From Thermoproteota archaeon (GTDB taxonomy: Archaea; Asgardarchaeota; Jordiarchaeia; Jordiarchaeales; Freyrarchaeaceae), in the NCBI GenBank assembly GCA_029258835.1, contig JAPDJY010000053.1, positions 1 through 64,000 of the forward strand: a stretch of 64,000 nt of DNA. The letters are read 5' to 3'. Of the stretch, positions 25,422 to 51,527 are shown in pieces. The stretch's first letter is position 1. The number at the start of each line of letters is the position of its first letter. The notes under the pieces are model-generated. The model saw only the letters and a list, made by a program, of their open reading frames with translations. It was not told where the DNA came from and ran no database searches. Both the position numbers and the translations under genes were made by a program.

Positions 25422-26936
25422 TTATGGCATTGACAGCCTACCTGGGTGCATGATGAAGTTCGGGTCAATAACCTCTCTAAACCGCCTTAAGAGGTCATAG
25501 TATGCCTTAGCCCTAGCAAACGTTAGCGGGGCATGCACGTACGGGTCAGGCCTATAGTTCAGCCACCCTTTATCGAGGAATATCTCCGTAGTGACGCGGT
25601 TCACCTCCTGCACACGACGCACATCCTCAGGATCAGTATAATCGAAGCATACGATAGGCATACAAATTGCCTGGCGGCAGTGGTCAATGCTGGCTATCCA
25701 CATAACCGGAGGGAAACCATACTCCTCCAGCTTCTGATTGTAAATCTCCGCGAATTCCGCACAGTTCTTCCATGGGGTATACCAGGTAATGAACAGGAAT
25801 CCGGCGTTCCATAGCGAGTATGGGATGGCGATCTTGTTTGGTTTGCGGAGCCTGCTTTGGATTTGCTTGGGGTGTAGCTTCCACTCCTTTATTTCGTGGC
25901 CTGTTTTCGCGTTGTATTCTTTGGCTAGTTCATGTATCTTGTTAACTGTGAAGTCGAGTTCTTCTTTGCTGTGGCACCAGATCTCGAAGTTCATCCACCA
26001 TCGGGGGATGCCGAGTTTCTTGTAGAACTCGTAGTCTGTTGGGACTTTCTCCTTAGGCCATCGGGTCATGACAAGGGGCCAGTTTCCTCCCTGCACCATT
26101 ACGAGGTGGTCTGCTATGCCTAGCTCGTACTTTGACACTTCTAGGGTGAAGTCTTGCATGTCGTATGGGTTGTCCATTCCATATGCAATTATTGTCTTGT
26201 GGTGTGGGTGGGGGACTATTTTTATTGCGAGCTTGGTGATGACGCCCATTGTGCCTTGGGCTCCTAGGAAGAGGCCGTCGAAGTTTGGTCCTAACCCCCA
26301 CCTGTAGAATGGCTTTGCTCCGGGTAGAGACCAGCTTCCGGTTCTGACTATTTCGCCTGTTGGGAGTACGATTTCCATGCCTAGTACCATGTCTGCCTGT
26401 GGGCCATACCTTGCTGTGACCATGCTGAATCCTCTTTCGAGGGCGTCGCCGACCACGGTTGCGGCTGGCGGTGCACCGTCGGGAACCGGGGGAGCCCAGT
26501 CTGGGTAGTATTCTTCAGGGCAACTGAGGGATATCCTCTATGTTGCCTTTCTGAAGTATGCCCAGACTTTGCCGCTTCTTACCCCCGGCTCCAGTACGGC
26601 GTATCTTGCGTCGGTGTTGACTTCTATTATGCGGTCCATTCGTGATAGGTCTAGTAGGATTCCTCCTGGCTGTACTAGGGGGGTTGCGTATCCGCCGCTT
26701 AGTCCTCCTGCGCATGGGGTTACGGGTATGTGGTTTTCATTTGCTAGGATCAGAATTTTTCTCACTTCTTCGACGTATCTGGGTCTCACGACTACTTCTG
26801 GTACTGTTGCTTCAAGCCCCATTATCCCTCTTGAGAGGTAACTGTACCGCATCGCGATGTCTGACGAGACGAACTCTTTCCCTACTATGCTTTCCAGCAT
26901 CTTTACGATGTCAGGTGTAACTTCATTATAACTCAC
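25422..26936 (-). CDS. FAD-binding oxidoreductase (GlcD/D-lactate dehydrogenase-like); two exons 26936-26549 and 26512-25422, 492 aa spliced
   Basis: PEVVVRP, GGILLDLSRMDRI, LEPGV / VLGMEIVLPTG, GAQGTMGVIT, DPNFIMHPG. The two same-frame ORFs join when a 36-nt BHB insert is removed. Confidence 0.85.
26513..26548 (-). other. Predicted BHB-type mRNA intron (36 nt)
   Basis: TCAG-AA^A-GGCAAC...GTTGCC-CTGA-AG^A; contains the in-frame TAG; spliced junction reads YFRKYYPDW. Confidence 0.8.
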
Positions 26937-27261: not shown

Positions 27262-28689
27262 TTAGTCGCTTATGCCTGCGAGGCGTTTTACTATCTGCTT
27301 TTTCTCTTCAACATCGTAGGTTGCCATTATTGCTATTTCCTCCATTACAGGGGATCCTCCTCCGTGGACGTCTGCGACCGCCATTACTCCCCCAAGGGCT
27401 GAGCAGAGCATATCCGAGAGCAGTCTGAAGCACCTGTGGATGTTTTCCGGCGGGACTTCGGCTCTTCTAGATATGTACTTTTCCAGCAGGGGGCCTGTTT
27501 CAGGGTTTAGGAAGTCTTCCTCGTATGGTAGGGTTGCTGGAAGGCCTCCTGATAGGTCTGTTAGGATTTCTATGGCTGCGTGTGCATTTAGACCAGCGTG
27601 CCTTCTGCCAACGTTAGCGTATACGACGTTTGGCACGCAGGTTCCCGACCCGTACGTTTGCGACTTTACCGCCGAGGCGATTCCCGCCGCGTAGACTAGT
27701 TCGCTTAAGCTGACTAATTGGGCAAGCTTCGACCTCACGTGAGGCTTGTTCTCCACACCGTTGTAGTCCGACACTAAGGCGGCTGCCCCCATTATTATGT
27801 CGAACAGTGCAGGCTTACAGCCTGTGTAGCTGTGCCTGTGGAAAAGGGCGAAAAGGTGTGCTAGCAACCCTGCAAACTGCCATTCTCCGCACAGGAAGAC
27901 ACGTTCCCAGGGGACGAAGACGTCGTCGAATACCACAAACGAGTCGGCTGCTCCAACTTCAGCCAGGGGGGCCTTAAACTTTTTCCTCGGTCTAAACGAC
28001 GTTGCACGGGTGACTAGTTTTACGCCTTCAGTATCCGCGGGTATCGCGAATGAGACTGACCAGTCTCCATCATCCTTAGTCATCATCCTCGTGGGTAATA
28101 CTATGAGCTCGTCGGCGTAGGCGGCCATGGTTATGTGGTTCTTCGCCCCCCGAACTATTATTCCGTCATCTGTCTTCTTTACGATCCGCACGTAAAGGTC
28201 CGGGTCTTTCTGCTGGTGGGGGCGTAGGCTTCGGTCACCCTTAACGTCCGTTTGGGCTCCTGCAGCCACAAGGTCGTTTTTCTGGAAGTATTCAAGGTAC
28301 TTAAGGAACCTTTTATGGTACTCTGTTCCTAAGGCTTGGTCGACTTCATATGTTATTACCGAGAGGGCGTTTATTGCGTCACATCCCATGCACCTCTGTA
28401 TGCACCCACCGGTCAAGTGGCAAAGCTTCCTTATCATTTCCTGCTTTTTAAGGAGGTCCTCCGGGCTACGATTTATGTGTGTAAACCTGTTTATTTTCTC
28501 CCCCGTGAGATGTGAGGTTGCTACGAGCAGGTCTTTGAATTCGGGGTCGTCAACCAGCTCGAACGTTTTCGATATAACTCTTATCCCGCCTTGGAGGCGG
28601 GGGTCATCACGCTTAACTTTTTCTCCTCCAATGTAAACGTTCGGCTTCATTTTGTACAAGCTTTCTTGATATTCTTCAGGGGTACGCAT
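27262..28689 (-). CDS. 4-hydroxybutyryl-CoA dehydratase / HpaB-fold family protein
   Basis: CIQRCMGCD, QTDVKGDRS, RGAKNH, HRHSYTGCK (3 Cys + His Fe-S ligands), HGGGSP; ATG 28689 follows GGAGG. Confidence 0.88.
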   Translation of the reverse strand: MRTPEEYQESLYKMKPNVYIGGEKVKRDDPRLQGGIRVISKTFELVDDPEFKDLLVATSHLTGEKINRFTHINRSPEDLLKKQEMIRKLCHLTGGCIQRCMGCDAINALSVITYEVDQALGTEYHKRFLKYLEYFQKNDLVAAGAQTDVKGDRSLRPHQQKDPDLYVRIVKKTDDGIIVRGAKNHITMAAYADELIVLPTRMMTKDDGDWSVSFAIPADTEGVKLVTRATSFRPRKKFKAPLAEVGAADSFVVFDDVFVPWERVFLCGEWQFAGLLAHLFALFHRHSYTGCKPALFDIIMGAAALVSDYNGVENKPHVRSKLAQLVSLSELVYAAGIASAVKSQTYGSGTCVPNVVYANVGRRHAGLNAHAAIEILTDLSGGLPATLPYEEDFLNPETGPLLEKYISRRAEVPPENIHRCFRLLSDMLCSALGGVMAVADVHGGGSPVMEEIAIMATYDVEEKKQIVKRLAGISD

Positions 28690-28911
28690 TTCGAAGCCTC
28701 CTCTACCTCCCTGAGAATATGGCATATGACTATACTTAAAGGTTTTTCAGGCTTCAGCCAGAATGTAGCCTTTTGAGTTGAAGGGTGTAGAATAATGGTG
28801 TTTTAATGGAGAAGCTAGTGGGCAAAAGAAGGAGGAGTTATGCTTTTTTCCTGGAGAGAGGAGGAGGCAATGTAGAATTGCAGATTTTTAGTCTATTTGG
28901 ATGTAAGCGGA

Positions 28912-38935: not shown

Positions 38936-39437
38936 CTCCCACCTGTTTACTTAAAACATCTAGGAGGACCTTTTCAAGGATGGTTACGAGTGCTTCAAGA
39001 GACTCTTCAACTTCAGGGGATAACTTCTCACCGAGGGCGCTCTTAGGCTGAACACCTACAAATATTACGTAGGCGTTAACCGTCTCCTGTAGGTACCTTG
39101 CAACCATAGAGAGAGGGGTGTGATGAGTTGAAAATGTTACTCCTCCTAAACTTGAGATGTCTGATGTTACCACCACGTCCCCGGGGCTACCGTTGAACTG
39201 GGCTGCATCCACGAAGACTACGTGGCTGGGTTCAAAACGCCTTAAAACACCTGTAAAGTTTTCAGGCATGGTTCCTGCTTCCACCACCAGAACGTTGGCA
39301 AGTTTTAAGCGTTTAAGCCTTCTGGCAACTTCAAGCCCCACCCGGTCGTCACCCTTGAGCTCGCTTCCCACGCCTACAATAGCCACCTTGACCGCGCCGT
39401 CCAACAGCTTCTTGAGAGCCTTTATCAAGCCTAACAC
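38913..39437 (-). CDS. hycI: Hydrogenase maturation peptidase (HycI-like)
   Basis: GVGSELKGDDRVG, GTMPEN, VDAA, STHHTPL, GVQP. Confidence 0.85.
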   Translation of the reverse strand: MLGLIKALKKLLDGAVKVAIVGVGSELKGDDRVGLEVARRLKRLKLANVLVVEAGTMPENFTGVLRRFEPSHVVFVDAAQFNGSPGDVVVTSDISSLGGVTFSTHHTPLSMVARYLQETVNAYVIFVGVQPKSALGEKLSPEVEESLEALVTILEKVLLDVLSKQVGDVQVGEG

Positions 39438-39501
39438 CCATAACTCCTTAACAAAGGAAACTTTAAAACCGTTTTTAACAAAGCTGATGACGGTGGCAGA
39501 A

Positions 39502-40083
39502 ATGGAGGAGAAAACAGAGGGAGAAAGTAGGGTTCAAGAGGAACTTAGAGAAGGAGAGGAAGAGGAGAAGGTTACCGGACTCTTAGTTGACGGCGATGTT
39601 GTGATCAACGAGAAAGACGCCGAGAAAATACATGGGAAAGGCTACGGAGAGTACGAGGAAGACGGGAAACTTCACCTAGCACCCGTAGAAGCACTCCTCC
39701 TAGCAGAAAGGGGGAGACTCGTGGTGCTGGATAGTGAAGGCAGGGAGCTCACATTTAAAGAATTAGCGAAGACCTTCACCCGGAAAGACCCTAAACTATG
39801 GACGCGGTACTTGGTTTACAGGGACCTGAGAAGCAGAGGGTATGTTGTTAAGCAAGGGTTCGGAGGGGGAATAGACTTCAGAGTTTACCCTAGAGGAAGT
39901 AAGGTCGGAGAGGAAGCTGCGAAAACGCTGATATACATAGTCACCGAGGGAAAACCGATAAACCTTAAGGAGCTAGACAGAGTAACCAAGCTCGCAGTAA
40001 GCATGAGGAAGAAGCTCACAATGGCGCTGATAAACAGGCAGGGTGACGTTGTATACTACAACGTGCTACAGATGACGTTTTAA
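39502..40083 (+). CDS. endA: tRNA-splicing endonuclease subunit (probably the structural/beta type)
   Basis: LAPVEALLL, YLVYRDLRSRGYVVK, DFRVY, RKKL; the expected catalytic His is not seen. ORF-track start 39157 overlaps hycI. Confidence 0.88.
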   Translation: MEEKTEGESRVQEELREGEEEEKVTGLLVDGDVVINEKDAEKIHGKGYGEYEEDGKLHLAPVEALLLAERGRLVVLDSEGRELTFKELAKTFTRKDPKLWTRYLVYRDLRSRGYVVKQGFGGGIDFRVYPRGSKVGEEAAKTLIYIVTEGKPINLKELDRVTKLAVSMRKKLTMALINRQGDVVYYNVLQMTF

Positions 40084-47226: not shown

Positions 47227-48515
47227 ATGGGGATGACTATTTCGGAGAAGATCTTAGCGTCCCACTCGGGAAAGGAGAGGGTTGAGCCGGGTGAGATAGT
47301 TAATGCTAAGGTTGACGTGGCGATGGTCCACGAGATGCTTGGAAACCCGGCGCCTTGACGGGCTGGGCTAAACTGCGCATAGCAGACATCTACGAGGAAC
47401 TCGGCGTTGATCGCGTCTGGGATCCGAAGAAGATAGTCGCGTTGATAGACCACTGGACGCCTGCTCCAAGCATAGATGCTGCTGTTATCCATGTAACCTG
47501 CAGAAGGTTCGTTGAAAAGTATGGTGTTGAGAACTGGCTTGACATGAGAGAGGGTATATGCCACGTTGTGCTTCCTGAGAAGGGGTTTGTTAAACCCGGA
47601 GACCTTGTTGTTGGAAGTGATTCCCACACGACGACCTACGGAGCCGTTGGAGCGTTCGCTACGGGAATAGGCGCCACCGACATGGCTATTGTGCTCGCTA
47701 CGGGTGAACTCTGGTTTAGGGTTCCGTCAACGGTGAAGTTTAACATTACAGGTAGGCTTCAGCCGCTGGTTATGGGCAAGGACATAATCCTTCACATTAT
47801 AGGTGAGATAGGAGTAGATGGGGCGACCTACAAGGCGATGGAGTTCTCGGGCGAGGTTGTGAAGGAGCTCAGCATGGATGGAAGGTTCACTCTCTGCAAC
47901 ATGGCTGTAGAGGCGGGAGGGAAAGCAGGCATAATAGAGCCGGATGAAAAGACGATAGAGTGGGTTAAGGCAAGGGTCAGCCAGCCGTTCAATCCGGTCA
48001 TGAACGACCCTGACGCAGAATACGAGGAGGTCATAGACGTTGATGTTTCAGGGCTGGAGCCACAGGTGGCTAAGCCGCCAAGCCCCCAGAACACGGTGCC
48101 CGTATCGGAAGTGGAAGGGACAAAGATAGACCAAGCCTTCGTCGGGTCATGCACTAACGGTCGGCTTGAAGACCTGAGAGCGGCTGCCAAGATACTTAAA
48201 GGCAGGAAGGTCGCAAGAAACGTAAGAGCTATAATAATACCGGCCTCGAAGGAAACCTACCTAGCGGCGATGAGGGAAGGCCTCATAGAAACGTTCTTGG
48301 AAGCAGGGTGCGTAGTCTGTAATCCGACGTGTGGCCCCTGCATAGGCGCCCACCTAGGACTTCTAGCACCAGGGGAAGTTTGCATATCATCATCCAACCG
48401 TAACTTCGTTGGAAGAATGGGAAGCAAGGACGCATGGATCTATCTTGCATCGCCAGCAACGGTAGCTGCATCAGCAGTAACAGGCGAAATAACAGACCCA
48501 CGTAACTTTGTCTAA
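47227..48515 (+). CDS. leuC: 3-isopropylmalate dehydratase/homoaconitase large subunit; two exons 47227-47344 and 47374-48515, 419 aa spliced
   Basis: [11 protein letters not shown]...VDVAMVHE is in one frame. [32 protein letters not shown] and [10 protein letters not shown] are in another. The frames join when a 29-nt BHB insert is removed. Confidence 0.9.
47345..47373 (+). other. Predicted BHB-type mRNA intron (29 nt)
   Basis: TGC-TTGG-AA^A-CCCGGC...GCTGGG-CTAA-AC^T-GCG; spliced junction reads [16 protein letters not shown]. Confidence 0.88.
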
Positions 48516-50884: not shown

Positions 50885-51527
50885 CTAGAGAGTAATGTTT
50901 AGATACTGCATGATTTGAGGCGCCAGGAGTCCGAGAAGGCCTCCTGATTCAGCTTGCCATGAGAAGGTGAGGTAAGCTATCAGCGCTATGCATGCGCCAC
51001 AGAGCACAATGTTAACCGCATGGTTGTCGTAGCGCAGCTTAGCAAGGCGCAGGTCTCGCTCGTGATCCCATAGGAATGCTCTGAGACTTTCCTGCTTCCG
51101 GGGGAGGATGTAAGGCAGCGTCCTCACCCCGGTCGGATTTGCCCCCATCAAGGTTTAGGCTGTCCGCTAGCCAGTGTGAGAAGACTGCTGCGGCTGCGAT
51201 AGCGAAGTATTGAGGGACGAAGTAGCCTATCAGGAGTGGCAGCCAGATAAGTGTTAGAATACTGTGGAGCAACCCTGACCTGTGCATTACCCTTTCTCTT
51301 TTCAGAAGCTGATCTAAGTCGGGTATGATTCCGAAGAAGCCGCCCGCGGCAAGTGCTGGGACGGCGCCTGATAGGGCAAGCTGAACCTGCCACGTGGAGC
51401 TGTACCTTGAAAGATCCATCAGTGTTTGCAGCTGGGAGAGCAGTGAGCCTTTAAGCTCAGGCGATACGAAGGATATCACGAGAGCTGCTGCGGCTGCTCC
51501 CAATATAATGTGCGTGTACTTCTGCAT
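50885..51527 (-). CDS. Membrane-bound metal-dependent hydrolase (YdjM/DUF457-like); two exons 51527-51155 and 51138-50885, 208 aa spliced
   Basis: YTH, IPDLD, HRSGLLHS, SHWLADSLN|PTGV; the family motif is completed only after removing a 16-nt insert. Confidence 0.85.
51139..51154 (-). other. Predicted BHB/BHL-type mRNA intron (16 nt)
   Basis: CGGACA-GCCT-AA^A-CC-TTGAT-GG-GGGC-AA^A-TCCG; spliced junction reads ADSLNPTGV. Confidence 0.8.

What the first reader, a model, noticed from the sequence alone, without database searches (positions are those of the whole stretch)
26513..26548. 36-nt BHB intron with an in-frame UAG in an FAD-linked oxidoreductase
Two same-frame ORFs are separated by one TAG (26538-26540). 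On the minus strand the region folds as helix UCAG/CUGA, bulges AAA and AGA, intron stems GGCAAC/GUUGCC and GAGG/CCUC, and flanking exon pairing UCUGGG/CCCAGA. The exon side is relaxed. Splicing gives TTC AGA A|AA TAC TAC CCA (FRKYYP) and a 492-aa protein. Such a TAG could be mistaken for a pyrrolysine codon.
Basis: partly seen in the sequence, partly recalled or inferred. Interest (0 to 1): 0.88.

Follow-up and report, generated by a model that had tools for sequence, protein, structure and literature searches.

The report
Spliced tRNA-type intron in enzyme gene
A flavin-enzyme gene of an Asgard archaeon (Jordarchaeia/Freyarchaeia) looks broken by a stop codon, but the break is a 36-base intron of the kind normally cut out of tRNAs, kept at the same codon in four related genomes; published cases of such introns inside archaeal coding sequences are limited to one gene (cbf5).

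Summary
Observation confirmed; interpretation supported. The minus-strand gene 26936..25422 (FAD_binding_4 oxidoreductase) carries a 36-nt insert (26548..26513) with an in-frame TAG. About 65 orthologs lack exactly these 12 codons. Four related Jordarchaeia genomes carry an insert at the same codon, of 29, 24, 22 and 29 nt. Only excision at the cuts predicted by the bulge-helix-bulge (BHB) rule gives a 492-aa frame in all four genomes with a complete gene. The central helix and inner helix are kept, the loop varies from 3 to 17 nt, and the last intron base is G/U/A/A/C. Exons are under purifying selection: 199 synonymous against 28 nonsynonymous codon differences. All 10 variable sites just after the 3' cut fall on third codon positions of the spliced frame. 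PylS is absent and TAG ends 28% of long ORFs. The genome encodes an (alpha-beta)2 EndA with the broad-specificity loop, plus RtcB. I confirmed similar introns in cbf5, EF-1alpha, aIF2gamma, kae1 and other genes of this genome. No RNA read spans the junction, so splicing is inferred, not observed. This scan has already reported the phenomenon on other Jordarchaeia DNA. I found no paper reporting it for Asgard archaea.

The parts
26549..26936 (-). Exon 1 of the FAD-binding oxidoreductase gene (GTG start at 26936; 129 codons plus the first base of a Lys codon)
   Evidence: (PF01565 FAD_binding_4). Versus L002 there are 54 synonymous and 9 nonsynonymous codon differences.
26513..26548 (-). 36-nt BHB (HBh'-type) intron, phase 1, containing the in-frame TAG (26540..26538)
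   Evidence: Absent from about 65 orthologs. Homologous inserts of 29, 24, 22 and 29 nt sit at the same site in L002, L017, L023 and L026. All 85 pair cells pair.
26551..26554 (-). Central helix H, 5' strand UCAG (exonic), followed by the 5' bulge AAA at 26550-26548; the cut is after 26549
   Evidence: invariant in five genomes.
26515..26518 (-). Central helix H, 3' strand CUGA (intronic), followed by the 3' bulge AGA at 26514-26512; the cut is after 26513
   Evidence: CUGA is invariant although intronic. The second bulge base is G/U/A/A/C in the five genomes.
26519..26547 (-). Inner helix h' (GGCAAC 26547-26542 / GUUGCC 26524-26519) enclosing a 17-nt loop with the apical stem GAGG/CCUC
   Evidence: The closing pair is C-G, U.G or U-A across genomes. 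The loop is 3-17 nt in the relatives.
25422..26512 (-). Exon 2 (last two bases of the Lys codon, 362 codons and the stop codon)
   Evidence: In the 21 codons after the 3' cut, all 10 variable sites are at codon position 3 and none changes an amino acid.
39490..40083 (+). EndA beta-like (non-catalytic) subunit gene of the splicing endonuclease; the true start is uncertain (open frame from 39157)
   Evidence: Ala at the catalytic His position; TIGR00324 93.9 bits; aligns to the N-terminal repeat of two-repeat EndAs.

Best explanation
The 36 nt at 26548..26513 (minus strand) are an archaeal bulge-helix-bulge intron inside the coding sequence of an FAD-linked oxidoreductase mRNA. In the transcript, exon bases UCAG pair with intron bases CUGA to form the 4-bp central helix. 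A 6-bp intron hairpin stacks on one side, and a 3-nt bulge sits 3' of the helix on each strand. The (alpha-beta)2 splicing endonuclease EndA cuts after the second base of each bulge. RtcB joins the exons, forming a Lys codon A|AA and a 492-aa reading frame. Shown here: the anatomy, the absence of the insert in orthologs, its conservation with variable length in relatives, selection on the spliced frame, and the presence of the enzymes. Inferred: the cleavage and ligation themselves. The intron was probably gained once in the ancestor of this Jordarchaeia subclade.
For: (1) All of the roughly 65 full-length orthologs lack exactly the 12 codons, and the spliced peptide WAYFRKYYPDWAPP matches them. 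(2) Four other genomes have an insert at the same codon, of 29, 24, 22 and 29 nt (2, 0, 1 and 2 mod 3), carrying TGA or a frameshift. Excision by the EndA rule gives a 492-aa ORF in every complete case. (3) The intronic strand of H and the inner helix are conserved while the loop ranges from 3 to 17 nt. One pair changes C-G / U.G / U-A, the last intron base is G/U/A/A/C, and 100% of cells pair against 25-53% when partners are slid. (4) Purifying selection acts on both exons: 199 synonymous and 28 nonsynonymous codon differences between the window and L002. All 10 variable sites in the 21 codons after the 3' cut are at position 3 of the spliced frame. (5) There is no intact paralog; the next best hit is 31% identical. 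(6) Machinery: the EndA alpha subunit is most similar to A. pernix 3P1Z_B and includes the region aligned to the Crenarchaea-specific L1 loop. A beta-like subunit lies in this window. RtcB is intact. Asgard (alpha-beta)2 EndA with L1 is reported to accept relaxed motifs (PMC5829648). (7) The same genome has BHB inserts whose excision restores catalytic motifs in cbf5 and in the only EF-1alpha copy above the family cut-off, and also in aIF2gamma and kae1. The same holds for three genes with Pfam profiles split at the insert. (8) The carriers form one clade with 100/99 support.
Against: There is no direct RNA evidence. The metatranscriptome X15 has contigs on both exons but none across 26513-26548. 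The outer exon helix next to the 3' bulge is missing, so the motif is relaxed. In this genome the minimum-energy fold extends H to 6 bp and masks the 3' bulge. Covariation statistics are weak with five close sequences, with 207 of 500 shuffles scoring as high. Structure-only genome scans show no clear excess of BHB motifs over controls, so the motif alone proves nothing. The case rests on comparative and coding evidence.
Confidence: 0.9

Rival explanations
1. The TAG is decoded as pyrrolysine or read through, and the 12 extra residues are part of the protein.
For: The TAG is in frame and 36 is a multiple of 3.
Against: PylS is absent: the best hit is 38 bits against a cut-off of 178. TAG ends 466 of 1,636 long ORFs. 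Relatives have TGA or frameshifting inserts at the same site. No ortholog has the 12 residues.
Confidence: 0.005
2. The gene is a pseudogene, or a gene disrupted by a small hairpin insertion that is not removed.
For: Gene callers split it into 132-aa and 344-aa ORFs here and in relatives. One Promethearchaeota homolog (L010) does look degraded.
Against: Both exons are under strong purifying selection across five genomes. The insert has been kept at one codon through divergence, with a conserved BHB core. There is no second copy of the gene, and the insert is not a repeat family. Essential genes in the same genome carry the same kind of insert.
Confidence: 0.03
3. The gene is expressed as two separate polypeptides (132 aa, plus 344 aa from GTG 26456) that assemble without splicing.
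For: A GTG start exists at 26456 and both ORFs are open.
Against: The 19 codons between the 3' cut and that GTG would be untranslated under this model. Yet they show 10 third-position changes and no amino-acid change, and they encode the ortholog-invariant PPVPDGAPPAAT. The break lies inside the FAD_binding_4 domain.
Confidence: 0.02
4. The ribosome bypasses the insert by translational hopping, as in phage T4 gene 60, so no RNA splicing is needed.
For: A stop codon soon after the take-off region and a hairpin in the gap resemble gene 60 (my own knowledge of that system).
Against: The would-be landing codon before TAC TAC is GAA, TAA, AAA, AAA and CAA in the five genomes, so it does not match a Lys take-off codon. 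That variable base is exactly the unpaired last intron base in the BHB model. The conserved 4-bp helix and 3-nt bulge geometry has no role in hopping. Other inserts in the genome (14-55 nt) share the BHB rule, not matched codons.
Confidence: 0.03

Closest known systems
BHB intron in the cbf5 pre-mRNA of Crenarchaeota (Watanabe 2002; Yoshinari 2006; Yokobori 2009, PMC2738675)
   Same: It is a short BHB intron inside a protein-coding sequence. It is removed by the tRNA splicing endonuclease of hetero-oligomeric (alpha-beta)2 type, gene callers see a broken gene, and it has been gained and lost among relatives.
   Different: The host is a different gene (a metabolic FAD-linked oxidoreductase) in a different lineage (Asgard, Jordarchaeia/Freyarchaeia). 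Here it is one of many such introns in the genome, including one in this genome's own cbf5 (C27:11929-11955). Splicing of cbf5 was shown experimentally; splicing here was not.
Non-canonical tRNA introns of Freyarchaeia/Atabeyarchaeia and Thermoproteales (PMC11291895; Marck and Grosjean 2003)
   Same: The motif grammar is the same (4-bp helix, 3-nt bulges, cut after the second bulge base, relaxed HBh' forms). The enzymes are the same, and so is the lineage, in which 92-95% of tRNA genes are reported to be interrupted.
   Different: The host RNA is an mRNA, so the exon half of the motif is constrained by coding and the excised length sets the reading frame.
BHB element in the 5' UTR of HVO_1309 mRNA, Haloferax volcanii (PMC7714728)
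   Same: It is an EndA substrate within an mRNA.
   Different: It lies in the untranslated leader, not in the coding sequence, and it does not restore a reading frame.
Unconventional cytoplasmic splicing of HAC1/XBP1 mRNA in eukaryotes (my own knowledge)
   Same: A short intron inside a coding sequence is removed without a spliceosome, by an endonuclease plus a tRNA-type ligase (RtcB in metazoa), and this changes the reading frame or the product.
   Different: The endonuclease is Ire1, not a Sen/EndA enzyme. The recognition element is a pair of stem-loops, not a BHB. That splicing is a regulated stress switch, and no regulation is shown here.

Membership tests
Archaeal BHB (EndA-dependent) intron | [quoted passage not shown] | tested here: met
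   UCAG-AAA ... CUGA-AGA. The same geometry is present in all five genomes.
Archaeal BHB (EndA-dependent) intron | Flanking helices: inner h' and outer h (strict hBHBh') | tested here: inconclusive
   The inner h' is a perfect 6 bp. The outer h next to the 3' bulge is absent: one possible U-A pair, then a 6x6 internal loop, then a distal 7-bp helix. It therefore fits the relaxed HBh' class, not the strict class. HBh' is an accepted substrate class for (alpha-beta)2 EndA with the L1 loop (PMC5829648).
Archaeal BHB (EndA-dependent) intron | Cutting after the second base of each bulge yields the functional mature RNA | tested here: met
   It gives a 492-aa ORF colinear with orthologs in the window, L002, L017 and L023.
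Archaeal BHB (EndA-dependent) intron | The host encodes a splicing endonuclease of suitable specificity and an RNA ligase | tested here: met
   EndA alpha with an L1-like loop, EndA beta-like and RtcB.
Archaeal BHB (EndA-dependent) intron | The intron is absent from the mature RNA (spliced junction, or a circular or linear excised intron, observed) | tested here: inconclusive
   The metatranscriptome X15 covers parts of both exons but not the junction. No further read-laying run was available.
Pyrrolysine-encoding in-frame UAG | pylS/pylT machinery present, UAG rare as a stop, and the position conserved as UAG or a sense codon in orthologs | tested here: not met
   No PylS above the cut-off. 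TAG is 28% of stops. Orthologs lack the codon altogether.

The most novel reading that the evidence does not exclude
The focal intron is one member of a genome-wide population of EndA/RtcB-spliced introns in mRNAs of Jordarchaeia. At least nine genes in this genome are supported, including the only EF-1alpha copy above the family cut-off, aIF2gamma, kae1 and cbf5. An independent intron sits at another site of the same oxidoreductase gene in a Promethearchaeota genome. mRNA splicing would then be an obligatory step of core gene expression in an Asgard lineage. Introns would be gained repeatedly at sites whose exon sequence can supply half of a BHB: EF-1alpha and aIF2gamma are hit at the same P-loop codon with the same helix CGGC/GCCG.
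Probability: 0.8. Interest if true: 0.85.

Novelty: new member of a known kind. Interest (0 to 1): 0.75.

Why it matters
Published cases of BHB introns inside archaeal coding sequences are limited to cbf5 of some Crenarchaeota (PMC7714728 said so in 2020, and my searches found nothing newer for Asgard archaea). This intron has unusually clean comparative support and lies in an ordinary metabolic gene of an Asgard archaeon. It sits beside similar introns in essential translation genes. There are three practical consequences. First, gene callers split or truncate such genes, so metabolic and phylogenomic inventories of Jordarchaeia/Freyarchaeia are systematically wrong at these loci. Second, in-frame TAG or TGA codons in such inserts can be mistaken for Pyl or Sec recoding, which has been discussed for this lineage. 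Third, it makes protein-gene interruption and mRNA splicing by the tRNA-splicing machinery testable in the prokaryotic group closest to eukaryotes.

Tried and rejected
(1) RNA evidence: one metatranscriptome (X15) holds 45% of the gene's words, but its three contigs (25514-25701, 25957-26361, 26615-26821) miss the junction. DNA run X3 has contig ends at 26523 and 26598, which is uninformative. (2) Genome-wide scan for BHB elements whose excision joins open frames: no excess over controls with the 3' cut shifted by 1-2 nt, either with plain open frames or with dominant ORFs. Adjacent genes dominate the hits. (3) Real versus mirror-geometry control on the reversed genome: similar counts up to score 36 and a small excess only at the top (12 vs 4 at >=40). 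Structure alone therefore cannot count introns, and I give no genome-wide number. (4) Candidates rejected by Pfam: C62:2997-3024 (ABC permease followed by a complete UxaC) and C3:10921-10935 (complete PTH2 followed by complete TruD) are adjacent genes. (5) Window 51139-51154 (minus strand): exon 1 matches YdjM positions 1-108 of 176, but exon 2 is not recognisable, so it is not confirmed. (6) L008, which seemed truncated, is an intact intronless gene. L010 looks truly degraded in its N-terminal third. (7) The intron sequence has no other copy in the genome, so a repeat or MITE origin finds no support. (8) ARAGORN finds no tRNA in the window.

Full report
THE OBSERVATION. On the minus strand, an ORF from GTG 26936 runs to a TAG at 26540..26538. 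The same frame is open again to the stop at 25424..25422. The read-through product matches Pfam FAD_binding_4 (PF01565, E = 2.4e-24). An intact ortholog is only distantly GlcD-like and falls below every NCBIfam cut-off, so the protein is a PCMH-type FAD-linked oxidoreductase of unknown substrate. The gene next to it is an HpaB / 4-hydroxybutyryl-CoA-dehydratase-like gene (27262..28725), and the same arrangement occurs in a relative.

The RNA around the TAG folds strongly: -33.3 kcal/mol, z = -5.8, with 0 of 200 shuffles folding as well.
- central helix UCAG (26554-26551) / CUGA (26518-26515);
- bulges AAA (26550-26548) and AGA (26514-26512), each 3' of the helix on its own strand, which is the geometry of the archaeal bulge-helix-bulge (BHB) motif;
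- inner helix GGCAAC/GUUGCC and apical stem GAGG/CCUC;
- a distal exon helix around UCUGGG/CCCAGA.

The outer helix directly next to the 3' bulge is missing, so this is the relaxed HBh' form. In this genome's copy the minimum-energy fold extends the central helix by two pairs.

THE INSERT IS ABSENT FROM ORTHOLOGS. A search of 5.8 billion proteins returned Asgard orthologs (Njord-, Sigyn-, Thor-, Loki-/Promethearchaeota, Jordarchaeia/Freyarchaeia). In an alignment of the best 68 hits, every full-length protein lacks exactly the 12 codons. The predicted spliced peptide WAYFRKYYPDWAPP is colinear with them, and one ortholog reads WAYFRKYYPEWAPP.

RELATIVES KEEP AN INSERT AT THE SAME CODON, WITH OTHER LENGTHS. 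A 94%-identical gene on a Logan contig (L002) is also called as two ORFs, but in different frames. Its insert is 29 nt and contains TGA. A scan of species-representative genomes found three more carriers:
- L017, Jordarchaeales JZ-1 bin 29: 24 nt with an in-frame TGA;
- L023, Jordarchaeum sp. LHC_1308: 22 nt;
- L026, Jordarchaeia QC4: 29 nt.

The five lengths are 0, 2, 0, 1 and 2 mod 3. Cutting after the second base of each bulge gives a clean 492-aa ORF in all four genomes with a complete gene.

Across the five genomes the intronic strand CUGA and the inner helix are conserved. The loop is 3, 5, 10, 10 or 17 nt and unrelated in sequence. The closing pair of the inner helix is C-G, U.G or U-A. 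The last intron base (second base of the 3' bulge) is G, U, A, A or C. All 85 pair cells form standard pairs, against 25-53% when partners are slid by 1-3 columns. With only five close sequences the shuffle test has no power, with 207 of 500 shuffles scoring as high, so I do not lean on covariation statistics.

SELECTION ACTS ON THE SPLICED FRAME. Between the window and L002 there are 199 synonymous and 28 nonsynonymous codon differences (exon 1: 54 and 9; exon 2: 145 and 19). The 21 codons immediately after the 3' cut would be untranslated if the second ORF started at its GTG (26456). There, all 10 variable sites among the five genomes are third positions of the splice-defined frame, and no amino acid changes. 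This excludes a pseudogene and a two-polypeptide arrangement.

The genome has no second copy of the gene; the next hit is 31% identical. The insert is unique in the genome. In a maximum-likelihood tree the five carriers form one clade with 100/99 support, and all other sequences lack the insert. These include other Jordarchaeia/Freyarchaeia at 72-77% identity. That points to one gain that was then retained.

RECODING IS EXCLUDED. The best PylS-like hit scores 38 bits against a cut-off of 178 and lies in another synthetase gene. TAG terminates 466 of 1,636 long ORFs. The relatives' TGA and frameshifting inserts cannot be explained by Pyl. Translational hopping is unlikely because the would-be landing codon is GAA, TAA, AAA, AAA or CAA in the five genomes. 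In the BHB model that variable base is simply the unpaired last base of the intron.

THE MACHINERY IS PRESENT. The genome has two EndA genes.
- The one on contig C1 is most similar to the Aeropyrum pernix catalytic alpha subunit (3P1Z_B, E = 4e-46). It includes the segment aligned to the Crenarchaea-specific L1 loop.
- The one in this window (about 39490-40083) has Ala at the catalytic His position and aligns to the non-catalytic repeat of two-repeat enzymes.

This is the (alpha-beta)2 architecture with L1 that has been reported for Asgard archaea and linked to cleavage of relaxed motifs such as HBh' (PMC5829648). RtcB is present and uninterrupted. In Freyarchaeia (= Jordarchaeia) and Atabeyarchaeia, 92-95% of tRNA genes are reported to carry introns, often several and at non-canonical positions (PMC11291895). 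In this roughly 95%-complete genome ARAGORN recognises only 23 tRNA genes, 18 of them with an intron.

THE FOCAL INTRON IS NOT ALONE. Earlier first-stage notes on this genome claimed many similar inserts, and I tested some of them independently. The supported cases are:
- cbf5 (C27:11929-11955, 27 nt): the gene has two in-frame stops, and excision restores HAGTL-D-PKVTGV, with the catalytic Asp codon G|AC formed at the junction.
- EF-1alpha (C27:28832-28874, 43 nt, frameshifting): this is the only copy above the family cut-off, and excision restores the P-loop GHVDHG-K-ST.
- aIF2gamma (C27:26080-26109, 30 nt): the same P-loop codon and the same central helix CGGC/GCCG as EF-1alpha.
- kae1 (C27:22172-22185, 14 nt): excision restores SQGPG-LGPCLR.
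- An AIRS-family gene (C82:1973-2002): Pfam profile positions 2-48 | 49-100.
- A radical-SAM gene (C19:4619-4673): CNLRCP^IC is restored and the Radical_SAM profile resumes at position 14.
- A GatE-like gene (C8:63575-63604): GatB_N positions 2-24 | 47-275.
- An aconitase-family large subunit in this window (47345-47373, 29 nt): exon 1 is a 39-codon ORF with an N-terminus that looks LeuC/HacA-like to me, and the exon 2 profile match starts at position 91.

Two candidates were rejected as adjacent genes and one stayed unconfirmed. Because an essential gene such as EF-1alpha is interrupted by a frameshifting insert, this organism must remove BHB introns from mRNA.

In addition, a Promethearchaeota ortholog of the focal gene (L009) carries an independent 30-nt BHB intron at another codon (GGCG AU|A ... 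CGCU AG|A). Its excision reproduces GPQGD^NFMCGEIV of intact orthologs.

LIMITS. No RNA read or contig spans the junction. The only metatranscriptome with the gene covers parts of both exons only. Scans based on structure, or on structure plus ORF joining, do not separate true introns from background. Shifted-cut and mirror-geometry controls give similar counts. I therefore give a list of individually supported cases, not a genome-wide number.

COMPARISON AND NOVELTY. Mechanistically this is the same kind of element as the cbf5 pre-mRNA intron of Crenarchaeota (PMC2738675). A 2020 paper stated that cbf5 was the only BHB intron reported in an archaeal coding sequence, beside one 5'-UTR case in Haloferax (PMC7714728). 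Eight full-text searches found no report of mRNA BHB introns in Asgard archaea. The library is incomplete, so this is not proof of absence. The focal intron is a new member of a known kind. The multi-gene context is the more remarkable part. This scan has already reported the phenomenon on other Jordarchaeia/Freyarchaeia DNA. One of those notes mentions an RNA library with a spliced junction, which I could not check.

VERDICT. My confidence that this is an EndA/RtcB-spliced mRNA intron is 0.9, and my interest score is 0.75.

Noticed in passing
window 47345-47373 (+): A 29-nt BHB insert (UUGG AA|A ... CUAA AC|U, 6-bp inner helix) lies between a 39-codon ORF that looks like a LeuC/HacA-type N-terminus (47227-47343) and a 379-aa aconitase-family ORF whose Pfam match starts at profile position 91. 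It is probably a second mRNA intron in this window.
   Followed up: partly
Exon 1 matches YdjM positions 1-108 of 176, but the downstream ORF shows no YdjM signal. Not confirmed.
   Followed up: partly
window 39157-40083 (+): The non-catalytic (beta-like) EndA subunit gene lies in the same window as two mRNA introns. The catalytic alpha subunit is on contig C1 (12233-12481 region).
   Followed up: yes
G000:C27:28832-28874 (-) and C27:26080-26109 (-): EF-1alpha (43 nt) and aIF2gamma (30 nt) are interrupted at the homologous P-loop codon (GHVDHG|K) with the same central helix CGGC/GCCG. This could be either an old intron shared by paralogs or repeated insertion at a sequence that supplies half a BHB.
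   Followed up: partly
G000:C27:11929-11955 (+) and C27:22172-22185 (-): cbf5 carries a 27-nt BHB intron that splits the catalytic Asp codon. kae1 carries a 14-nt mini-intron with a 6-bp outer helix and almost no inner helix.
   Followed up: partly
G000:C82:1973-2002 (-), C19:4619-4673 (-), C8:63575-63604 (+), C1:136638-136664 (-): An AIRS-family gene, a radical-SAM gene (zinc ribbon plus Radical_SAM), a GatE-like gene and probably a PflX-like radical-SAM gene are split by 27-55-nt BHB inserts. For the first three, the Pfam profiles continue across the insert.
   Followed up: partly
L009:2465-2494 (Promethearchaeota contig, JGI 3300033148): An independent 30-nt BHB intron with two stops lies at a different codon of the orthologous oxidoreductase gene. 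Excision reproduces the sequence of intact orthologs exactly.
   Followed up: yes
L010:1991-2500 (ENA ERZ25039471 contig_14142): Another Promethearchaeota homolog has seven stops in its N-terminal third in the aligned frame. It looks degraded or multiply frameshifted. I did not test it for introns.
   Followed up: no
whole genome G000: ARAGORN recognises only 23 tRNA genes, 18 with introns, in a 94.7%-complete genome. Several calls have implausibly long 'introns' of 450-700 nt. Most tRNA genes are probably too interrupted to be detected.
   Followed up: no
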